DNA of 64,000 nucleotides from Escherichia coli (GTDB lineage Bacteria; Pseudomonadota; Gammaproteobacteria; Enterobacterales; Enterobacteriaceae), in the NCBI RefSeq assembly GCF_016026235.1, contig NZ_CP065613.1; one strand, written 5' to 3'. Every line of letters begins with the position of its first letter. Positions within the stretch are counted from its first letter, which is position 1. Positions 4,386 to 61,137 of this stretch are shown piece by piece. The position numbers and the translations under genes were made by a program. Under the pieces are notes generated by a model. The model did no database searches. It was not told the origin of the DNA and saw nothing but the letters and a program-made list of their open reading frames with translations.

Positions 4386-4537
4386 CGAGATCCCTTCCAG
4401 CACCGAGCAATTGCCCGGTTTTTTTTGCGTTGAATTTGTCATTTTGTGCCGTGGTGTTTAAACCGCACAGAATAAATTGTCGTGATTTCACCTTTAAAAT
4501 AAAATTAAAAGAGAAAAAAATTCTCTGTGGAAGGGCT

Positions 4538-4996
4538 ATGTTAGATAAAATTGACCGTAAGCTGCTGGCCTTACTGCAGCAGGATTGCACCCTCTCTTTG
4601 CAGGCACTGGCTGAAGCCGTTAATCTGACAACCACCCCTTGCTGGAAGCGCCTGAAACGGCTGGAGGACGACGGTATCCTTATCGGCAAAGTCGCCCTGC
4701 TGGATCCGGAAAAAATAGGCCTCGGCCTGACCGCCTTTGTGCTGATAAAAACGCAACATCACAGCAGCGAATGGTATTGCCGCTTTGTCACGGTGGTTAC
4801 CGAAATGCCAGAAGTGCTGGGGTTCTGGCGCATGGCTGGTGAATACGATTATCTGATGCGCGTCCAGGTTGCCGACATGAAACGCTACGACGAGTTTTAT
4901 AAGCGTCTGGTAAACAGCGTGCCGGGGCTGTCGGACGTCACTTCCAGCTTCGCGATGGAACAGATTAAATACACCACTTCTTTACCCATCGAATAA
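4538..4996 (+). CDS. decR: Lrp/AsnC-family transcriptional regulator DecR (YbaO)
   Basis: ORF track 4310..4996 contains the 152 aa Lrp/AsnC regulator starting [10 protein letters not shown]; upstream part of the ORF treated as non-coding extension. Confidence 0.88.
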
Positions 4997-5025
4997 ATAT
5001 CCAGAATCAGGTCAGGACACAACGC

Positions 5026-8572
<3,547 letters not shown>

Positions 8573-8684
8573 ATAGCGCAATATTTCATCGTTGGTGCAA
8601 AAATGTAACGCACTGTGCACTGTCATAGTGCGTTTTCATTTTCAATCTTCTTAACTTCCTGCTCTCTTTCTCGTTTTTCATTTC

Positions 8685-8700
8685 TGGCACACCGCTTGCA
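8685..8700 (+). promoter_or_regulatory. sigma54 (RpoN) -24/-12 promoter TGGCAC-N5-TTGCA for glnK-amtB, with NtrC-type palindromes upstream (about 8590-8632)
   Basis: Exact TGGCAC N5 TTGCA at 8685-8700, about 50 nt upstream of glnK ATG; TGCAC-N7-GTGC palindrome at about 8616-8632. Confidence 0.75.
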
Positions 8701-8752
8701 ATACCTTCTTCGTGTAGCAGAACCATTACCGAATTCTGACCGGAGGGGATCT

Positions 8753-9091
8753 ATGAAGCTGGTGACCGTGATAATCAAACCATTCAAGCTGGAAGACGTT
8801 CGTGAAGCGTTATCTTCCATTGGTATTCAGGGCCTGACCGTCACCGAAGTGAAAGGTTTCGGGCGTCAGAAAGGGCATGCCGAGCTGTACCGGGGGGCGG
8901 AATACAGCGTCAACTTCCTGCCAAAAGTAAAAATTGATGTGGCGATTGCTGATGACCAACTCGATGAAGTGATCGATATCGTCAGTAAGGCGGCTTACAC
9001 CGGAAAAATTGGCGACGGCAAAATCTTCGTCGCTGAATTGCAACGCGTCATTCGTATTCGTACCGGCGAAGCCGACGAAGCGGCGCTGTAA
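8753..9091 (+). CDS. glnK: nitrogen regulatory protein PII-2 GlnK
   Basis: 112 aa PII protein MKLVTVIIKPFKLEDVREAL inside ORF 8615..9091. Confidence 0.95.
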   Translation: MKLVTVIIKPFKLEDVREALSSIGIQGLTVTEVKGFGRQKGHAELYRGAEYSVNFLPKVKIDVAIADDQLDEVIDIVSKAAYTGKIGDGKIFVAELQRVIRIRTGEADEAAL

Positions 9092-9274
9092 TCTCTGGCA
9101 CACAGCAACAGGAACGAAAAATGAAGATAGCGACGATAAAAACTGGGCTTGCTTCACTGGCGATGCTGCCGGGACTGGTAATGGCTGCACCTGCGGTGGC
9201 CGATAAAGCCGACAATGCGTTTATGATGATTTGTACTGCGCTGGTGCTGTTTATGACTATTCCGGGGATTGCCC

Positions 9275-10567
9275 CTGAGGGATCCCCAGAAAATTTAGTA
9301 AACCATTATCATATTGGTATACCGTTGCTGTAGAACTTTCAGCCCTGCGTCAAGTGACAGTGTGTTTAGTATGAGTGGAGAATGTCGAATCACATTCTCC
9401 GCCAGTTTTAATAACGAGATGACTCGCCTGTGCTTCACTGTATTTGCCTGATATTTATGATGTATCCCTTTGTTTTCCAGGCTGAAACCGCTTAACCACA
9501 TAATGATACTGGCTAATGTTGCGATCAGACTCAATACCGTGACCCGCCCGGATGAATGACTGGCACCAAACCGTAGTCCAAATCCCCAGCGAGGATTTTT
9601 TCATCCCTGAAATTTTGCTCAATTTGCATTCTACGGCTGTATAATTTCATTACCTGTTTTGGCGAGAACTCAGTACTGTTTGTGAAAATAAACCATGGTG
9701 ATTTCCCGGCAGTACGAGCTTTAGCCGTCACCGATGGTCTGGTTGCTCTTTCCTTCGAGCGTTTAAATCTACGACCTTTAGGCTTACTTTTATAAAGATA
9801 AAAATGCCCTTCATGTTGTGCATTTTTATCTCGACCCAGCAGGCCTTCACCTAAATAAATTGCTGTCGTTGATGCTTTTGTGCCTGAGTCCGACACCTTT
9901 TCCCAGCCATTACCAACATTGTAATAATGATTGCCCAGTACCCGGCAAATATAGGTCCAGCCACGGGAGCGGAGCTGTTGGAACCATCGCCCCTGAAAAC
10001 CGGCATCTGTAATAACAATGACATCAGTCCCGGGGGAAAAGCACTCAGCAAGCGATTCCAGAAAACGCTCATGTACATCTGCATTCGCTGTCTGTGATGA
10101 TGGAACGACACAACTCATCAACGGTAAAGAACGCCCGTCACATGCCAGGCTTGCCCGCAAAAGCTGAAAACGAGAGGCATGATAAGCACTCCAGTCAATG
10201 AGTATCACAACACGAGACATTCCCCGCGTAATCTTTTGGGTAATTCGCTGAAAAATGGTGGAAACCTCATTTTGCAAATGTCGATTCCCCAACAGTCGAT
10301 CCACCCGCTTTATTTTGTTTTTAACTGATGCCGTACCGGTTAAATGACGCCCGATACTGGTAAGTGTGAGGGAAGCGCCATTTATTACAGCATTAGTTGC
10401 GTCAATCAGTGATTTTTGACGGTAAAGATGCAAAGGGGCCAGTATGTTGTTAAGGAAATTTTGGCATAATGAACGTGCAGGCATAGTGGTGATCTCCTTG
10501 AAATTGTTAGCACAATCAATTAGATCACATCTCACTATGCCTGTCTTGTTTTCTGGGGATTCCTCAG
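9275..10567 (-). mobile_element. IS10-like insertion sequence (IS4 family), about 1.29 kb, imperfect terminal inverted repeats CTGAGGGATCCCC / CTGAGGAATCCCC, flanked by direct repeat (G)GGATTGCCC
   Basis: Terminal IRs read directly; flanking duplication at 9265-9274 and 10568-10577; internal transposase with IS4-family Y-R-E-K signature. Confidence 0.88.
9295..10484 (-). CDS. IS4-family (IS10-like) DDE transposase, apparently frameshifted (N-terminal frame 9531..10484, C-terminal frame 9295..about 9579)
   Basis: ORF track 9531..10649 and 9295..9534 both transposase-like, in different frames; YSRRMQIEQNFRDEK signature; AAGGAG SD upstream of ATG at 10484. Confidence 0.8.
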
Positions 10568-11728
10568 GGGATTGCCCTGTTTTACGGTGGGTTGATTCGC
10601 GGCAAAAACGTGCTGTCGATGCTGACGCAGGTGACGGTGACATTTGCACTGGTCTGTATTCTCTGGGTGGTTTACGGTTACTCGCTGGCGTTTGGTGAGG
10701 GCAACAACTTCTTCGGCAACATTAACTGGTTGATGCTGAAAAACATCGAACTGACGGCGGTGATGGGCAGCATTTATCAGTATATCCACGTAGCGTTTCA
10801 GGGATCGTTTGCCTGCATTACCGTAGGCTTGATAGTTGGGGCGCTGGCGGAACGAATCCGCTTCTCAGCTGTGTTGATTTTCGTGGTGGTATGGCTGACG
10901 CTCTCTTACATTCCAATTGCGCATATGGTCTGGGGCGGTGGTTTGCTGGCTTCTCACGGTGCGCTGGATTTCGCGGGTGGCACGGTGGTGCACATTAACG
11001 CCGCAATCGCCGGTCTGGTGGGCGCGTATCTGATAGGAAAACGCGTGGGCTTCGGTAAAGAGGCGTTTAAACCGCACAACCTGCCGATGGTCTTCACCGG
11101 GACTGCCATTCTCTATATCGGTTGGTTTGGCTTTAACGCCGGGTCAGCGGGCACGGCGAATGAAATCGCGGCACTGGCATTTGTGAATACTGTGGTCGCA
11201 ACGGCGGCGGCAATTCTTGGCTGGATCTTCGGTGAATGGGCGCTGCGTGGTAAGCCTTCACTGCTGGGGGCGTGTTCTGGCGCGATTGCCGGTCTGGTCG
11301 GCGTGACGCCAGCCTGTGGCTACATTGGTGTTGGCGGCGCGTTGATTATCGGCGTGGTAGCTGGTCTGGCGGGCTTGTGGGGCGTTACCATGCTCAAACG
11401 CTTGCTGCGGGTGGATGATCCCTGCGATGTCTTCGGTGTGCACGGCGTTTGTGGCATTGTCGGCTGTATCATGACCGGGATTTTTGCCGCCAGCTCGCTG
11501 GGCGGCGTGGGCTTCGCTGAAGGTGTGACGATGGGCCATCAGTTGCTGGTACAGCTGGAAAGCATTGCCATTACGATCGTCTGGTCCGGTGTGGTGGCAT
11601 TTATTGGCTACAAACTGGCGGATCTGACGGTTGGCCTGCGTGTGCCGGAAGAACAAGAGCGAGAAGGGCTGGACGTCAACAGTCACGGCGAGAATGCCTA
11701 TAACGCGTAACAAGCACTGCAAAAAACA

Positions 11729-11760
11729 GCCGGACGGTTTTCACCTCCGGCTATTTTTTT
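11729..11760 (+). terminator. Rho-independent terminator after amtB (hairpin GCCGGA...TCCGGC plus T-tract)
   Basis: GC hairpin followed by 8 T directly after amtB stop; also lies at the tesB 3' end on the opposite strand. Confidence 0.6.
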
Positions 11761-12619
11761 AATTGTGATTACGCATCACCCCTTCCTGAACGGTCGAGGC
11801 AACCAGTACGCCGTCATGGGTATAAAACTCACCGCGCACAAAGCCACGTGCGCTGGACGCCGAGGTGCTCTCCACGCTATACAGCAGCCATTCATTCAAA
11901 TTAAACGGGCGATGGAACCACATGGAATGGTCAATGGTGGCAATCTGAATCCCCGGTTCGAGAAAACCGATGCCGTGCGGCTGTAGAGCTACCGGCAGGA
12001 AGTTAAGATCAGAAGCGTAACCGAGCAGATACTGATGAACGCGCAGGTCATCCGGCACGCTACCATTTGCGCGGATCCACACCTGACGATGTGGTTCTGC
12101 GACGTGACCTTTCAGTGGGTTATGAAACTCCACCGGACGGACTTCCAGCGGACGATCGCAGATGAATTTATCTTTCAGCACTGGCGGCAGCAGGTGCGCC
12201 AGCGACTGGGCGATTTGCGTTTCCGAAGGCAGGCCATCAGGCGCTGGCGCGGACGGCATTGTTTTTTGATGTTCGAAACCCGCTTCTGGTGCCTGGAAAG
12301 AGGCCGTCATATAAAAAATCGGTTTGCCGTTTTGAATAGCAGCAACCCGGCGGGCGCTGAAGCTGTTACCGTCACGCAGCGTTTCGACATCATAAATAAT
12401 CGGTTTCTTACTATCGCCTGGGCGAAGAAAGTAGCTGTGAAACGAATGTACCAGCCGCTCTTCCGGGACGGTCTCTTTTGCAGCATACAAGGCCTGACCC
12501 ACGACCTGGCCGCCAAACACCTGGCGTAAACCTAAATCTTCACTCTGGCCGCGAAAGAGTCCTTCCTCAATTTTTTCCAGATTTAACAATGTCAGTAAAT
12601 TTTTTAGCGCCTGACTCAT
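11759..12619 (-). CDS. tesB: acyl-CoA thioesterase II
   Basis: 286 aa starting [20 protein letters not shown] inside ORF 11759..12703. Confidence 0.93.
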
Positions 12620-12836
12620 ATAACTCTCCAGTAACAAAGCTGCCGCAGCAAGCCAAAGTGAGTTGAGTATAACGCAAATTTGCCACTGGTCCGATGGGTA
12701 CAATAGTCTGAATTACGGGCTAATTACAGGCAGAAATGCGTGATGTGTGCCACACTTGTTGACGTTACTATTTTGTTAACCACTCTTCCGGCGAGGAAAG
12801 TTAGCCCGCTGGTGCATTGATAATAAGGAGAAATGA

Positions 12837-13409
12837 ATGAAACTCGTGCACATGGCCAGTGGTTTAGCGGTTGCGATTGCGTTGGCGGCTTGCGCAGATA
12901 AAAGCGCGGATATTCAGACGCCAGCCCCGGCTGCAAATACGTCTATTTCAGCAACACAACAACCTGCTATCCAGCAACCGAATGTCTCCGGTACCGTCTG
13001 GATCCGTCAGAAAGTCGCACTGCCGCCTGATGCTGTGCTGACCGTGACACTTTCTGACGCGTCGTTAGCCGATGCACCGTCAAAAGTGCTGGCGCAGAAA
13101 GCGGTGCGTACTGAAGGTAAACAGTCACCATTCAGCTTTGTTCTGCCATTTAACCCGGCAGATGTTCAGCCGAACGCGCGTATTCTGTTGAGTGCGGCGA
13201 TTACCGTGAATGACAAACTGGTATTTATCACCGATACCGTTCAGCCGGTGATCAACCAGGGCGGAACTAAAGCCGACCTGACATTGGTGCCGGTACAGCA
13301 AACCGCCGTGCCGGTTCAGGCCAGCGGTGGCGCAACGACTACCGTACCTTCGACTTCACCAACTCAGGTGAATCCGTCTTCGGCAGTTCCAGCTCCTACG
13401 CAATATTAA
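12837..13409 (+). CDS. ybaY: outer-membrane lipoprotein YbaY
   Basis: ORF track 190 aa; lipobox LAAC after signal peptide. Confidence 0.88.
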   Translation: MKLVHMASGLAVAIALAACADKSADIQTPAPAANTSISATQQPAIQQPNVSGTVWIRQKVALPPDAVLTVTLSDASLADAPSKVLAQKAVRTEGKQSPFSFVLPFNPADVQPNARILLSAAITVNDKLVFITDTVQPVINQGGTKADLTLVPVQQTAVPVQASGGATTTVPSTSPTQVNPSSAVPAPTQY

Positions 13410-13439
13410 GCGACGTTAACCCTCTCCGCCCGGAGAGGG

Positions 13440-13829
13440 TTAGTAGTTCCAGCGATAACGCTGCAAGTCGATTTGCCCGCTTCCCGATACCATCACACCT
13501 TCTGCCAGTAATGCCTGTCGCTGACGCTGTAAATCCGGTCCGGTTAGCGAAATTGTGCCGTGGCGATTAACCACCCGGTGCCAGGGTAAGGTGCTGCCTT
13601 CAGGGAGACGCTTTAACACACCGCCCACCTGGCGCGCGGCGCGGGGCGATCCCGCCAGTTTCGCCACATCACCGTAAGTGGTGACATAGCCTTCGGGAAT
13701 AGCGGCGACGATTTGCCAGACGCGTTGGGGAAATGAATCTTCTTTTTCCATCTTTTCTTCCTGAGGTAATTTTTCAGCATAATCTGGAAAAACGCCCGAG
13801 TGAAGTCGCATTGCGCAAGAAACCAGCAT
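13440..13829 (-). CDS. atl: DNA base-flipping alkyltransferase-like protein Atl (YbaZ)
   Basis: 129 aa inside ORF 13440..13904; HRVVN motif of the AGT-like fold without the active-site Cys. Confidence 0.85.
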   Translation of the reverse strand: MLVSCAMRLHSGVFPDYAEKLPQEEKMEKEDSFPQRVWQIVAAIPEGYVTTYGDVAKLAGSPRAARQVGGVLKRLPEGSTLPWHRVVNRHGTISLTGPDLQRQRQALLAEGVMVSGSGQIDLQRYRWNY

Positions 13830-13905: not shown

Positions 13906-14019
13906 GGGGGCTCTGTTGGTTCTCCCGCAACGCTACTCTGTTTACCAGGTCAGGTCCGGAAGGAAGCAGCCAAGGCAGATGACGCGTGTGCCGGGATGTA
14001 GCTGGCAGGGCCCCCACCC
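13906..14019 (+). ncRNA. ffs: 4.5S RNA (signal recognition particle RNA)
   Basis: 114 nt GGGGGCUCUGUUGG...GGCAGGGCCCCCACCC read directly; matches the E. coli 4.5S RNA as I recall it. Confidence 0.93.
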
Positions 14020-29549: not shown

Positions 29550-31481
29550 ATGAGTTATCAGGTCTTAGCCCGAAAATGGCGCCCACAAACCTTTGCTGAC
29601 GTCGTCGGCCAGGAACATGTGCTGACCGCACTGGCGAACGGCTTGTCGTTAGGGCGTATTCATCATGCTTATCTTTTTTCCGGCACCCGTGGCGTCGGAA
29701 AAACCTCTATCGCCCGACTGCTGGCGAAGGGGCTAAACTGCGAAACCGGCATTACCGCGACGCCGTGCGGCGTGTGCGATAACTGTCGTGAAATCGAGCA
29801 GGGGCGCTTTGTCGATCTGATTGAAATCGACGCCGCCTCGCGCACCAAAGTTGAAGACACTCGCGACCTGCTGGATAACGTCCAGTACGCTCCGGCGCGT
29901 GGTCGTTTCAAAGTTTATCTGATCGACGAAGTGCATATGCTGTCGCGCCACAGCTTTAACGCATTGTTAAAAACCCTTGAAGAGCCGCCGGAGCACGTTA
30001 AGTTTCTGCTGGCGACGACCGATCCACAGAAATTGCCGGTGACGATTTTGTCACGCTGTCTGCAATTTCATCTCAAGGCGCTGGATGTCGAGCAAATTCG
30101 CCATCAGCTTGAGCACATCCTCAACGAAGAACATATCGCTCACGAGCCGCGGGCGTTGCAATTGCTGGCGCGCGCCGCTGAAGGCAGCCTGCGAGATGCC
30201 TTAAGTCTGACCGACCAGGCGATTGCCAGCGGTGACGGCCAGGTTTCAACCCAGGCGGTCAGTGCGATGCTGGGTACGCTTGACGACGATCAGGCGCTGT
30301 CGCTGGTTGAAGCGATGGTCGAGGCCAACGGCGAGCGCGTAATGGCGCTGATTAATGAAGCCGCTGCCCGTGGTATCGAGTGGGAAGCGTTGCTGGTGGA
30401 AATGCTCGGCCTGTTGCATCGTATTGCGATGGTACAACTTTCGCCTGCTGCACTTGGCAACGACATGGCCGCCATTGAGCTGCGGATGCGTGAACTGGCG
30501 CGCACCATACCGCCGACGGATATTCAGCTTTACTATCAGACGCTGTTGATTGGTCGCAAAGAATTACCGTATGCGCCGGACCGCCGCATGGGCGTTGAGA
30601 TGACGCTGCTGCGCGCGCTGGCGTTCCATCCACGTATGCCTCTGCCTGAGCCAGAAGTGCCACGCCAGTCCTTTGCGCCCGTCGCGCCAACGGCAGTAAT
30701 GACGCCAACCCAGGTGCCGCCGCAACCGCAATCAGCGCCGCAGCAGGCACCGACTGTACCGCTCCCGGAAACCACCAGCCAGGTGCTGGCGGCGCGCCAG
30801 CAGTTGCAGCGCGTGCAGGGAGCAACCAAAGCAAAAAAGAGTGAACCGGCAGCCGCTACCCGCGCGCGGCCGGTGAATAACGCTGCGCTGGAAAGACTGG
30901 CTTCGGTCACCGATCGCGTTCAGGCGCGTCCGGTGCCATCGGCGCTGGAAAAAGCGCCAGCCAAAAAAGAAGCGTATCGCTGGAAGGCTACCACTCCAGT
31001 GATGCAGCAAAAAGAAGTGGTCGCCACGCCGAAGGCGCTGAAAAAAGCGCTGGAACATGAAAAAACGCCGGAACTGGCGGCGAAGCTGGCGGCAGAAGCC
31101 ATTGAGCGCGACGCGTGGGCGGCACAGGTGAGTCAACTTTCGCTACCAAAACTGGTCGAACAGGTGGCCTTAAATGCCTGGAAAGAGGAGAGCGACAACG
31201 CAGTATGTCTGCATTTGCGCTCCTCTCAGCGGCATTTGAACAACCGCGGTGCACAGCAAAAACTGGCTGAAGCGTTGAGCATGTTAAAAGGTTCAACGGT
31301 TGAACTGACTATCGTTGAAGATGATAATCCCGCGGTGCGTACGCCGCTGGAGTGGCGTCAGGCGATATACGAAGAAAAACTTGCGCAGGCGCGCGAGTCC
31401 ATTATTGCGGATAATAATATTCAGACCCTGCGTCGGTTCTTCGATGCGGAGCTGGATGAAGAAAGTATCCGCCCCATTTGA
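29550..31481 (+). CDS. dnaX: DNA polymerase III subunits tau and gamma
   Basis: ORF track 643 aa; Walker A GTRGVGKTS. Confidence 0.97.
   Translation: MSYQVLARKWRPQTFADVVGQEHVLTALANGLSLGRIHHAYLFSGTRGVGKTSIARLLAKGLNCETGITATPCGVCDNCREIEQGRFVDLIEIDAASRTKVEDTRDLLDNVQYAPARGRFKVYLIDEVHMLSRHSFNALLKTLEEPPEHVKFLLATTDPQKLPVTILSRCLQFHLKALDVEQIRHQLEHILNEEHIAHEPRALQLLARAAEGSLRDALSLTDQAIASGDGQVSTQAVSAMLGTLDDDQALSLVEAMVEANGERVMALINEAAARGIEWEALLVEMLGLLHRIAMVQLSPAALGNDMAAIELRMRELARTIPPTDIQLYYQTLLIGRKELPYAPDRRMGVEMTLLRALAFHPRMPLPEPEVPRQSFAPVAPTAVMTPTQVPPQPQSAPQQAPTVPLPETTSQVLAARQQLQRVQGATKAKKSEPAAATRARPVNNAALERLASVTDRVQARPVPSALEKAPAKKEAYRWKATTPVMQQKEVVATPKALKKALEHEKTPELAAKLAAEAIERDAWAAQVSQLSLPKLVEQVALNAWKEESDNAVCLHLRSSQRHLNNRGAQQKLAEALSMLKGSTVELTIVEDDNPAVRTPLEWRQAIYEEKLAQARESIIADNNIQTLRRFFDAELDEESIRPI
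30833..30839 (+). other. dnaX: dnaX programmed -1 ribosomal frameshift heptamer A AAA AAG (yields gamma; -1 frame stops at TGA 30842-30844), followed by GC-rich stem-loop
   Basis: Slippery heptamer and downstream hairpin CCGGCAGCCGCTACCCGCGCGCGGCCGG read directly; mechanism is established for E. coli dnaX. Confidence 0.85.
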
Positions 31482-38900: not shown

Positions 38901-38985
38901 CGTAGGCCAGCTAAGGCGTTCACGCCGCATCTGGCATTTTGCTCTCAATGCCTGATGCGACGCTGGCGCGTCTTATCAGGCCTAC
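38901..38985. repeat. REP elements downstream of gsk
   Basis: GCCTGATGCGACGCTGGCGCGTCTTATCAGGCCTAC type palindromic units. Confidence 0.7.
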
Positions 38986-42369: not shown

Positions 42370-44022
42370 ATGAAATTATTGCAGCGGGGCGTGGCGTTAG
42401 CACTGTTAACCACATTTACACTGGCGAGTGAAGCTGCTCTGGCGTATGAGCAGGATAAAACCTACAAAATTACAGTTCTGCATACCAATGATCATCATGG
42501 GCATTTTTGGCGCAATGAATATGGCGAATATGGTCTGGCGGCGCAAAAAACGCTGGTGGATGGTATCCGCAAAGAGGTTGCGGCTGAAGGCGGTAGCGTG
42601 CTGCTACTTTCCGGTGGCGACATTAACACTGGCGTGCCCGAGTCTGACTTACAGGATGCCGAACCTGATTTTCGCGGTATGAATCTGGTGGGCTATGACG
42701 CGATGGCGATCGGTAATCATGAATTTGATAATCCGCTCACCGTATTACGCCAGCAGGAAAAGTGGGCCAAGTTCCCGTTGCTTTCCGCGAATATCTACCA
42801 GAAAAGTACTGGCGAGCGCCTGTTTAAACCGTGGGCGCTGTTTAAGCGTCAGGATCTGAAAATTGCCGTTATTGGTCTGACGACGGATGACACAGCGAAG
42901 TTAGGCAATCCAGAAAACTTCACCGATATTGAGTTCCGTAAGCCCGCCGATGAAGCGAAGCTGGTGATTCAGGAGCTGCAACAGACAGAAAAGCCAGACA
43001 TTATTATCGCGGCGACACATATGGGGCATTACGATAACGGCGATCACGGTTCTAACGCACCGGGCGATGTGGAGATGGCACGCGCGTTGCCTGCCGGATC
43101 GCTGGCGATGATTGTCGGCGGTCACTCGCAAGATCCAGTCTGTATGGCAGCGGAAAATAAAAAGCAGGTAGATTACGTTCCGGGTACGCCATGCAAACCG
43201 GATCAACAAAACGGCATCTGGATTGTACAGGCGCATGAGTGGGGCAAGTACGTTGGTCGGGCCGACTTTGAGTTTCGCAACGGCGAAATGAAAATGGTTA
43301 ACTACCAGCTGATTCCGGTGAACCTGAAGAAGAAAGTGACCTGGGAAGACGGGAAAAGCGAGCGCGTGCTGTACACCCCGGAAATCGCTGAAAACCAGCA
43401 AATGATCTCGCTGTTATCACCGTTCCAGAACAAAGGCAAAGCGCAGCTGGAAGTGAAAATAGGCGAAACCAATGGTCGTCTGGAAGGCGATCGTGACAAA
43501 GTGCGTTTTGTACAGACCAATATGGGGCGGTTGATTCTGGCAGCACAAATGGATCGCACTGGTGCCGACTTTGCGGTGATGAGCGGAGGAGGAATTCGTG
43601 ATTCTATCGAAGCTGGCGATATCAGCTATAAAAACGTGCTGAAAGTGCAGCCATTCGGCAATGTGGTGGTGTATGCCGACATGACCGGTAAAGAGGTGAT
43701 TGATTACCTGACAGCCGTCGCACAAATGAAGCCAGATTCAGGTGCCTACCCGCAATTTGCCAACGTTAGCTTTGTGGCGAAAGACGGCAAACTGAACGAC
43801 CTGAAAATCAAAGGCGAACCGGTCGATCCGGCGAAAACTTACCGTATGGCGACATTAAATTTCAATGCCACCGGCGGTGATGGCTATCCGCGCCTTGATA
43901 ACAAACCGGGCTATGTGAATACCGGCTTTATTGATGCCGAAGTGCTGAAAGCGTATATCCAGAAAAGCTCGCCGCTGGATGTGAGTATTTATGAACCGAA
44001 AGGTGAGGTGAGCTGGCAGTAA
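42370..44022 (+). CDS. ushA: periplasmic UDP-sugar hydrolase / 5'-nucleotidase UshA
   Basis: ORF track 550 aa with signal peptide. Confidence 0.96.
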   Translation: MKLLQRGVALALLTTFTLASEAALAYEQDKTYKITVLHTNDHHGHFWRNEYGEYGLAAQKTLVDGIRKEVAAEGGSVLLLSGGDINTGVPESDLQDAEPDFRGMNLVGYDAMAIGNHEFDNPLTVLRQQEKWAKFPLLSANIYQKSTGERLFKPWALFKRQDLKIAVIGLTTDDTAKLGNPENFTDIEFRKPADEAKLVIQELQQTEKPDIIIAATHMGHYDNGDHGSNAPGDVEMARALPAGSLAMIVGGHSQDPVCMAAENKKQVDYVPGTPCKPDQQNGIWIVQAHEWGKYVGRADFEFRNGEMKMVNYQLIPVNLKKKVTWEDGKSERVLYTPEIAENQQMISLLSPFQNKGKAQLEVKIGETNGRLEGDRDKVRFVQTNMGRLILAAQMDRTGADFAVMSGGGIRDSIEAGDISYKNVLKVQPFGNVVVYADMTGKEVIDYLTAVAQMKPDSGAYPQFANVSFVAKDGKLNDLKIKGEPVDPAKTYRMATLNFNATGGDGYPRLDNKPGYVNTGFIDAEVLKAYIQKSSPLDVSIYEPKGEVSWQ

Positions 44023-44659: not shown

Positions 44660-44743
44660 ACACCGTCGCTTAAAGTGACGGCATAATAATAAAAAAATGA
44701 AATTCCTCTTTGACGGGCCAATAGCGATATTGGCCATTTTTTT
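44660..44743 (+). ncRNA. chiX: ChiX (MicM/SroB) small RNA
   Basis: About 84 nt ACACCGUCGCUUAAAGUGACGGCAUAAUAAUAAAAAAAUGAAAUUCCUCUUUGACGGGCCAAUAGCGAUAUUGGCCAUUUUUUU in the ybaK-ybaP intergenic region, ending in a terminator hairpin plus U-tract; recognised from memory. Confidence 0.88.
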
Positions 44744-46037: not shown

Positions 46038-46275
<238 letters not shown>

Positions 46276-60302: not shown

Positions 60303-60602
<300 letters not shown>

Positions 60603-61046: not shown

Positions 61047-61137
61047 TGCTAGATGAGGACTGTTTCATTTCTGCCCGGAACCACCAAGTCTTGGGCGGAA
61101 AAAATAAAAAAACCGACTGTCATGTCGGTTTTTTTAT
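61047..61137 (+). ncRNA. candidate antitoxin sRNA (about 90 nt), divergent from the toxin ORF; its 5' end carries a 16 nt box identical to 60861-60876 and hence complementary to the minus-strand toxin leader
   Basis: Near-consensus sigma70 promoter TTGAAT (61013-18), 17 nt spacer, TATAAT (61036-41); transcript would start about 61044-61048 and end at hairpin AACCGAC-TGTCAT-GTCGGTT plus 7 T (61111-61137). Confidence 0.45.
61111..61137. terminator. bidirectional Rho-independent terminator (A-tract, hairpin, T-tract) shared by selU (minus) and the candidate sRNA (plus)
   Basis: AAAAAAACCGAC TGTCAT GTCGGTTTTTTT read directly. Confidence 0.75.

What the first reader, a model, noticed from the sequence alone, without database searches (positions are those of the whole stretch)
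8590..8700. Canonical sigma54 promoter with NtrC-type palindromes upstream of glnK
TGGCAC-N5-TTGCA at 8685-8700 and TGCAC-N7-GTGC palindromes at about 8608-8632, consistent with NtrC-activated expression of glnK-amtB under nitrogen limitation.
Basis: partly seen in the sequence, partly recalled or inferred. Interest (0 to 1): 0.2.

Follow-up and report, generated by a model that had tools for sequence, protein, structure and literature searches.

The report
Known glnK nitrogen-starvation promoter
This is the well-studied E. coli glnK promoter, switched on by the regulator NtrC and sigma-54 when nitrogen runs out; it is ordinary, except that in this genome an insertion sequence has broken the second gene it drives, amtB.

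Summary
TGGCACACCGCTTGCA lies at 8685-8700 on the + strand, 53 nt before the glnK start codon (8753). The TGCAC-N7-GTGC dyad lies at 8616-8631. A second, degenerate dyad sits at 8596-8612.

The mdlB-glnK spacer differs from E. coli K-12 MG1655 by one base, in the non-conserved spacer. Published K-12 work therefore applies directly:
- sigma-54 ChIP-seq on this exact 17-mer;
- NtrC ChIP-seq and gSELEX peaks at this spacer;
- loss of glnK mRNA in a glnG deletion strain.

Comparison with 14 other Enterobacterales shows two conserved islands, the double dyad and the -24/-12 element. The spacer between them is unconserved and varies in length in steps of about one helical turn.

Additions:
1. In Enterobacteriaceae the dyad region also forms a strong hairpin followed by a U-run, so it probably also terminates mdlB transcription.
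2. A CCUUCU stretch just upstream of the predicted start site can pair with the glnK ribosome-binding site only in read-through RNA. This is the published glnKp insulator.
3. amtB is split after codon 51 by an ISEc60 insertion found in none of 5,426 complete E. coli genomes. The promoter here drives glnK plus a broken amtB.

Interest is low.

The parts
6791..8572 (+). mdlB (upstream, co-directional ABC transporter gene); stop codon TGA at 8570-8572
   Evidence: Collinear with annotated mdlB of E. coli FDAARGOS_943. mdlB-glnK-amtB synteny is kept in 14 Enterobacterales loci.
8596..8612 (.). Distal NtrC-type dyad (site 1), TGCAAAAATGTAACGCA. Degenerate; its centre is 20 bp from the centre of site 2.
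   Evidence: TGGTGCA...ACGCA is conserved in Enterobacteriaceae. A TGCAC-N7-NCGCG dyad sits in the same register (-20) in Yersinia, Rahnella and Acerihabitans. Assignment to NtrC is by consensus and conservation. No footprint data could be read.
8616..8632 (.). Proximal NtrC-type dyad (site 2), TGCACTGTCATAGTGCG. It matches 10 of 14 specified positions of TGCACCA-N3-TGGTGCA.
   Evidence: GCAC-N5-T-N-GTGCG is invariant in all 14 aligned Enterobacterales (A4).
8607..8642 (+). Terminator-like RNA hairpin (11-pair stem 8607-8617/8624-8634, loop 8618-8623) followed by UUUUCAUUUU. It overlaps the NtrC dyads and is the probable intrinsic terminator of mdlB.
   Evidence: Found by the terminator scan. 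The 78-nt fold gives -23 kcal/mol, z = -3.87. The hairpin core is -12 to -18 kcal/mol and is followed by a U-run in all 9 Enterobacteriaceae. 93% of cells are paired, with one compensatory pair. Termination itself was not shown.
8633..8684 (+). Pyrimidine-rich (44 of 52 C/T), unconserved looping spacer between enhancer and promoter
   Evidence: Its length varies between genera. No IHF consensus within one mismatch.
8685..8700 (+). Sigma-54 promoter core of glnKp: -24 element TGGCAC, -12 element TTGCA
   Evidence: TGGCA-N6-TTGC is invariant in 9 Enterobacteriaceae. It is identical to the sigma-54 ChIP-seq motif in K-12.
8704..8710 (+). CT-rich anti-Shine-Dalgarno segment (CCTTCTT), centred about -4 from the predicted start
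   Evidence: Levy et al. mapped insulation by glnKp to a 7-nt CT-rich region centred at -4. In folds of read-through RNA, 8705-8710 pairs with the SD at 8743-8748. The sigma-54 transcript lacks this segment.
8711..8711 (+). Predicted transcription start (12 nt after the C of the -12 GC). The 5' UTR would be 42 nt.
   Evidence: Inferred from promoter geometry. It agrees with the 'distance 42' listed for glnK in PMC4591121. Not measured here.
8743..8750 (+). glnK Shine-Dalgarno sequence, GGAGGGGA
   Evidence: Read from the sequence. GGAG.G is conserved in the alignment.
8753..9091 (+). glnK, a PII-family nitrogen regulator of 112 aa, intact
   Evidence: NCBIfam NF007946, 236.8 bits, full length. 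100% identical to E. albertii GlnK.
9121..9274 (+). amtB 5' fragment (codons 1-51), cut off by the insertion
   Evidence: matches positions 1-51 of the 428-position AmtB model.
9275..10567 (-). ISEc60 (IS4-like) insertion of 1293 bp. Inverted ends CTGAGGGATCCCCAG / CTGAGGAATCCCCAG. Target duplication GGGATTGCCC (9265-9274 and 10568-10577). The transposase is frameshifted by a 1-nt deletion near 9595.
10568..11710 (+). amtB 3' fragment, the remainder of the gene
   Evidence: model positions 57-428 matched for the listed ORF.

Best explanation
This is glnKp, the sigma-54-dependent, NtrC-activated promoter of the E. coli glnK-amtB operon.

Shown in K-12 on near-identical DNA: RNA polymerase with sigma-54 binds the -24/-12 element (8685-8700), NtrC binds the mdlB-glnK spacer, and glnK mRNA depends on NtrC and on nitrogen starvation.

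Inferred here: the holoenzyme sits as a closed complex until NtrC acts. Phosphorylated NtrC, formed when glutamine is low, binds the two adjacent dyads at 8596-8612 and 8616-8632, 75 to 95 bp upstream of the -12 GC. It oligomerises there, reaches the polymerase by looping the short pyrimidine-rich spacer, and opens the promoter using ATP. Transcription starts near 8711. The assignment of the two dyads, the start site and the looping geometry are all inferences.

The same region probably also shields glnK from mdlAB read-through in two ways. A hairpin with a U-run overlaps the dyads. An anti-SD stretch lies just upstream of the start site.

In this genome the transcript runs into an ISEc60-disrupted amtB.
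For: - Exact motif at the stated coordinates, unique in the window, 0.08 expected.
- It lies in the intergenic spacer, co-oriented with glnK and 53 nt before the ATG. No sigma-70-like site was found in the spacer.
- The spacer differs from MG1655 by 1 nt. It is present at 95% identity or more in 5,423 of 5,426 complete E. coli genomes.
- Literature on the same DNA: sigma-54 ChIP-seq motif CTGGCACACCGCTTGCA; NtrC ChIP-seq peak and loss of glnK mRNA in a glnG deletion strain; gSELEX for RpoN and NtrC; 400-fold higher NtrC activity at glnKp under starvation.
- The Salmonella glnK-amtB promoter fusion gives 1.1 Miller units in replete medium and 1778 under nitrogen limitation, and is sigma-54-dependent.
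- In 14 Enterobacterales every locus has a -24/-12 element 45-90 nt before the glnK ATG and a (T/C/A)GCAC-N7-GTGCG dyad upstream of it. The two are the conserved islands of the spacer.
- The distance from dyad to promoter takes the values 75, 85, 106, 118-119 and 128-130 bp. These share one helical phase (R = 0.9 at 10.8-11 bp; p about 0.001, or 0.011 after collapsing near-equal values). This is expected for a short looping enhancer.
Against: - Nothing contradicts the assignment.
- The TGCAC-N7-GTGC pattern alone is not rarer than chance.
- Site 1 is degenerate and is absent in Photorhabdus.
- The published NtrC ChIP-seq interval (471741-471821 in the older K-12 numbering) maps to about 8672-8752. 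That is the promoter and 5' UTR, roughly 90 bp downstream of the dyads. It agrees only at ChIP resolution.
- I could not read a DNase footprint or primer-extension paper for glnKp. The exact NtrC contacts and the start site are therefore inferred.
Confidence: 0.95

Rival explanations
1. The dyad region at 8607-8642 is only the intrinsic terminator of mdlB. Its resemblance to NtrC sites is incidental, and the real enhancer lies elsewhere.
For: There is a strong hairpin followed by a U-run directly after the mdlB stop codon. It is kept in all 9 Enterobacteriaceae, with one compensatory pair.
Against: GCAC-N5-T-N-GTGCG stays invariant in Yersinia, Rahnella, Acerihabitans and Photorhabdus, where no U-run follows and the extended stem is gone. 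The dyad keeps helical phase with the promoter across length changes. NtrC binds this spacer in vivo and in vitro, and no better NtrC-like site exists in it. A dual role, enhancer on DNA and terminator on RNA, fits all the data better than terminator alone.
Confidence: 0.04
2. The sigma-54 site is a silent binding site, or is activated by an enhancer-binding protein other than NtrC.
For: Many sigma-54 ChIP sites in E. coli are intragenic and were not linked to detectable transcription (PMC4591121). E. coli has several enhancer-binding proteins.
Against: The site is intergenic, correctly oriented and conserved together with an NtrC-type dyad. glnK mRNA is not readily detected in a glnG deletion strain and is restored by complementation. 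The Salmonella orthologue is induced more than 1000-fold by nitrogen limitation.
Confidence: 0.01

Closest known systems
E. coli K-12 glnKp (glnK-amtB promoter; sigma-54 and NtrC dependent)
   Same: The 180-bp spacer is identical except for one base at 8646. The promoter core, both dyads, the CT-rich segment, the SD and the glnK gene are the same.
   Different: Downstream, amtB is interrupted by ISEc60 after codon 51. No complete E. coli genome in the collection carries this junction.
glnAp2 of E. coli (the model NtrC enhancer and sigma-54 promoter)
   Same: It has a -24/-12 promoter with two NtrC dyads upstream on the same face of the helix, and is activated by looping (PMC1865078, gives sites at -108 and -140).
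   Different: In glnKp the dyads are closer together (20 bp between centres, against 32) and closer to the promoter (about -87 and -107 from the predicted start). There is no overlapping sigma-70 promoter. One dyad is degenerate. From my own recollection of Atkinson et al. 2002, which I could not read here, glnKp has a weaker enhancer that needs more phosphorylated NtrC.
Insulating sigma-54 promoters with CT-rich anti-SD motifs (Levy et al. 2017, bioRxiv 10.1101/086108)
   Same: The CCTTCTT segment centred at -4 is present. In folds of the native sequence it pairs with the glnK SD only in read-through RNA.
   Different: The published work used synthetic reporter constructs. Here the pairing is only predicted, for the natural glnK SD.

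Membership tests
Sigma-54 (RpoN) dependent promoter | -24 GG and -12 GC elements with fixed spacing (TGGCAC-N5-TTGCW) | tested here: met
   TGGCACACCGCTTGCA at 8685-8700, an exact consensus match.
Sigma-54 (RpoN) dependent promoter | Placed upstream of a gene and co-oriented with it, and conserved in orthologous loci | tested here: met
   The -12 GC lies 54 nt (counted C-to-A, 8699 to 8753) before the glnK ATG. A -24/-12 element sits 45-90 nt before glnK in all 14 Enterobacterales loci. TGGCA-N6-TTGC is invariant in 9 Enterobacteriaceae.
Sigma-54 (RpoN) dependent promoter | Bound by sigma-54 holoenzyme | not testable with these tools
   Literature only: ChIP-seq peak OS03 on the identical 17-mer in K-12 and a gSELEX peak.
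Sigma-54 (RpoN) dependent promoter | Transcription abolished without rpoN | not testable with these tools
   Literature only: sigma-54-dependent activity of the Salmonella glnK promoter fusion.
NtrC-activated enhancer (UAS) | One or more 17-bp dyads resembling TGCACCA-N3-TGGTGCA, about 70-150 bp upstream of the promoter | tested here: met
   Site 2 at 8616-8632 matches 10 of 14 positions. Site 1 at 8596-8612 is weaker. Their centres lie 75 and 95 bp from the -12 GC.
NtrC-activated enhancer (UAS) | Dyad conserved as a protein-binding site, independent of neighbouring features | tested here: met
   GCAC-N5-T-N-GTGCG is invariant in 14 taxa, including those without the U-run. Spacing to the promoter is helically phased.
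NtrC-activated enhancer (UAS) | NtrC occupancy and NtrC-dependent expression | not testable with these tools
   Literature only: NtrC ChIP-seq peak 1 and loss of glnK mRNA in a glnG deletion strain; gSELEX with NtrC. The resolution of those data does not pin down the dyads.
Rho-independent (intrinsic) terminator, as a second role of the dyad region | Stable GC-containing hairpin immediately followed by a U-run, downstream of a stop codon | tested here: met
   An 11-pair stem, 6-nt loop and UUUUCAUUUU begin 35 nt after the mdlB stop.
Rho-independent (intrinsic) terminator, as a second role of the dyad region | Structure maintained by compensatory change | tested here: inconclusive
   93% of cells are paired, but only one pair changes on both sides (U-A to C-G), probably from a single event.
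Rho-independent (intrinsic) terminator, as a second role of the dyad region | RNA 3' ends at the U-run | not testable with these tools
   No 3'-end mapping data were available. A literature search for mdlB, glnK and terminator found nothing relevant.

The most novel reading that the evidence does not exclude
In Enterobacteriaceae the same 40 bp (8596-8642) may act in two ways. On DNA it would be the NtrC enhancer of glnK. On RNA it would be the intrinsic terminator of the upstream mdlAB operon. With the anti-SD segment at -4, this would give glnK two layers of protection from read-through, so that it is expressed only on NtrC's command. In this strain the ISEc60 break in amtB would also leave GlnK without its membrane partner.
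Probability: 0.5. Interest if true: 0.25.

Novelty: already known. Interest (0 to 1): 0.08.

Why it matters
As a promoter call it adds nothing new. glnKp is a standard reporter of NtrC activity in E. coli.

The surrounding details are of modest interest:
- The enhancer overlaps a likely terminator.
- The enhancer-promoter distance changes between genera in whole helical turns.
- The operon's transporter gene is knocked out by a rare insertion sequence. That could alter ammonium uptake and GlnK signalling in this strain.

Tried and rejected
- Looked for a second sigma-54 site. The only one-mismatch hit (43076) lies inside a 550-aa ORF and has a spoiled -12 element, so it was rejected as chance.
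- Looked for a sigma-70 promoter in the spacer. None was found.
- Looked for an IHF consensus (WATCAANNNNTTR, up to 1 mismatch) between enhancer and promoter. None was found.
- An Rfam scan of the whole window found nothing in 8500-9300.
- Tried to read Atkinson et al. 2002 (PMC135341) and Reitzer & Schneider 2001 (PMC99035) for footprint and start-site data. Neither is held.
- Considered the dyad as a terminator only. Rejected because the dyad is conserved where the U-run is not.
- Considered a third NtrC site ending in TGGTGCA at 8583-8599. Its left half is not conserved, and it shares TGCA with site 1, so it is not listed as a part.

Full report
**Location and context**

The window around the finding is the E. 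coli mdlA-mdlB-glnK-amtB-tesB locus. Bases 4400-9274 and 10564-13500 are 99.9% identical to E. coli FDAARGOS_943, where these genes are annotated. mdlB ends at 8572 and glnK runs from 8753 to 9091. Its product matches the GlnK equivalog NF007946 over its full length, at 236.8 bits against a cut-off of 181.

**Checking the observation**

TGGCAC-ACCGC-TTGCA lies at 8685-8700 on the + strand, exactly as stated. It is the only exact match in the window on either strand. Shuffles give 0.08 expected matches. With one mismatch allowed, one more hit appears, at 43076. It lies inside a 550-aa ORF and has TTGCC at -12, so I treat it as chance.

TGCAC-N7-GTGC occurs once, at 8616-8631. That pattern alone is expected about once per window, so the match by itself carries no weight. 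The second 'palindrome' is a degenerate dyad, TGCAAAAATGTAACGCA, at 8596-8612.

**Identity with the studied promoter**

The 201 bases around the spacer differ from K-12 MG1655 at one position, 8646 (T here, A in K-12). That position is in the unconserved part. The spacer is present at 95% identity or more in 5,423 of 5,426 complete E. coli genomes. Published K-12 results therefore apply:
- sigma-54 ChIP-seq peak OS03 has the motif CTGGCACACCGCTTGCA upstream of glnK, centred where window position 8692 maps;
- NtrC ChIP-seq peak 1 is glnK-amtB;
- glnK mRNA is not readily detected in a glnG deletion strain and is restored by complementation;
- gSELEX finds both RpoN holoenzyme and NtrC in the mdlB/glnK spacer;
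- NtrC-specific activity at glnKp is about 400-fold higher under ammonium starvation.

The Salmonella orthologue behaves the same way. Its fusion gives 1.1 Miller units in replete medium against 1778 under nitrogen limitation.

One small mismatch remains. The NtrC ChIP interval maps to about 8672-8752, roughly 90 bp downstream of the dyads. I attribute this to ChIP resolution.

**Comparative evidence gathered here**

A search with GlnK returned 14 Enterobacterales loci, all with mdlB-glnK-amtB synteny. Each has a -24/-12 element 45-90 nt before the ATG and a (T/C/A)GCAC-N7-GTGCG dyad further upstream.

In an alignment of 9 Enterobacteriaceae, the invariant columns fall into three groups: the dyad block, TGGCA-N6-TTGC, and the SD and start region. 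The spacer between dyads and promoter is unalignable and varies in length. Across all 14 taxa, GCAC-N5-T-N-GTGCG is invariant. Site 1 keeps the same register, 20 bp upstream, in Yersinia, Rahnella and Acerihabitans. It is lost in Photorhabdus.

The distance from the centre of site 2 to the -12 GC takes these values:
- 75 bp in Escherichia;
- 85 bp in Citrobacter;
- 106 bp in Superficieibacter;
- 118-119 bp in a Klebsiella sp. and Photorhabdus;
- 128-130 bp in the Enterobacter spp., Yersinia, Acerihabitans and Rahnella.

These values share one phase for a period of 10.8-11 bp (R = 0.9). The p-value is about 0.001 after correcting for the period scan, and 0.011 when near-equal values are collapsed. 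This is what a short looping enhancer that must face the polymerase would show. No IHF consensus and no sigma-70-like site lie in the spacer.

**Mechanism**

Binding of sigma-54 holoenzyme and NtrC, and dependence of glnK mRNA on NtrC, are shown in the literature on near-identical DNA. The following points are inferred: which bases NtrC contacts (the two dyads), the start site (8711, 12 nt after the -12 C, consistent with the 'distance 42'), and looping across the 52-bp pyrimidine-rich spacer.

**A second layer: insulation from mdlAB**

The terminator scan flagged 8607-8634 followed by TTTTCATTTT. As RNA, bases 8573-8650 fold at -23 kcal/mol, with z = -3.87. All 9 Enterobacteriaceae have an equivalent hairpin of -12 to -18 kcal/mol followed by a U-run. 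The more distant genera keep the dyad but have neither the extended stem nor the U-run. Pair counting gives 93% pairing and one U-A to C-G compensatory pair. That is weak evidence, and probably a single event.

I conclude that the dyad is primarily a protein-binding site. In Enterobacteriaceae it probably also forms the mdlB terminator.

Separately, Levy et al. showed that glnKp silences read-through translation through a CT-rich segment centred at -4. In my folds of the native sequence, CCUUCU (8705-8710) pairs with the glnK SD (8743-8748) in read-through RNA. A transcript starting at 8711 lacks this segment. Mean unpaired probability of the SD is 0.24 in read-through RNA and 0.45 in the native transcript.

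**The broken amtB**

amtB starts at 9121 and stops matching the reference at 9274. It resumes at 10568. The 1293 bp between are ISEc60, an IS4-like element. It has inverted ends and a GGGATTGCCC target duplication, and its transposase is on the - strand.

Compared with a reference copy, this copy lacks one T in a homopolymer near 9595, which frameshifts the transposase. That could be a real mutation or a sequencing error.

No complete E. coli genome in the collection has this amtB junction. Full-length ISEc60 occurs in only 14 of 5,426 genomes. So in this genome glnKp drives glnK and a truncated amtB.

**Verdict**

The feature is already known in detail. Interest is low.

Noticed in passing
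window 9121-11710 (insertion at 9275-10567): amtB, the second gene of the operon, is split after codon 51 by a 1293-bp ISEc60 (IS4-like) element with a GGGATTGCCC target duplication. None of 5,426 complete E. coli genomes carries this junction. Full-length ISEc60 is found in only 14 of them.
   Followed up: yes
window ~9595 (inside ISEc60): This ISEc60 copy lacks one T of a T-run present in a reference copy. The deletion frameshifts the 396-aa transposase into two ORFs. It may be a real inactivation or a homopolymer sequencing error.
   Followed up: partly
window 8607-8642: The NtrC dyad region also forms an 11-pair hairpin followed by a U-run, 35 nt after the mdlB stop. This looks like an intrinsic terminator overlapping the enhancer. 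Hairpin and U-run are kept in 9 Enterobacteriaceae but not in Yersinia, Rahnella, Acerihabitans or Photorhabdus, which keep only the dyad.
   Followed up: partly
window 8624-8699, and loci L002-L018 upstream of glnK: The distance from the proximal NtrC dyad to the -12 element differs between genera (75, 85, 106, 118-119, 128-130 bp). All values share one helical phase (period 10.8-11 bp; p about 0.01 or lower).
   Followed up: partly
window 8705-8710 with 8743-8748: CCUUCU just upstream of the predicted start is predicted to pair with the glnK Shine-Dalgarno sequence only in read-through RNA. This matches the published glnKp insulator, here in the native context.
   Followed up: partly
window 43076-43091: A one-mismatch sigma-54-like motif (TGGCACGCGCGTTGCC) lies inside a 550-aa ORF on the + strand. 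The -12 element is spoiled, and I judged it a chance match.
   Followed up: partly
window 30814-30878, 13914-14010, 44660-44743, 38905-38982, 46041-46219, 60370-60548, 61049-61137: Rfam gathering-level hits elsewhere in the window: the DnaX frameshift element, small SRP RNA (ffs), sroB, several naRNA4 repeat copies, and AgrB. These are ordinary E. coli features.
   Followed up: no
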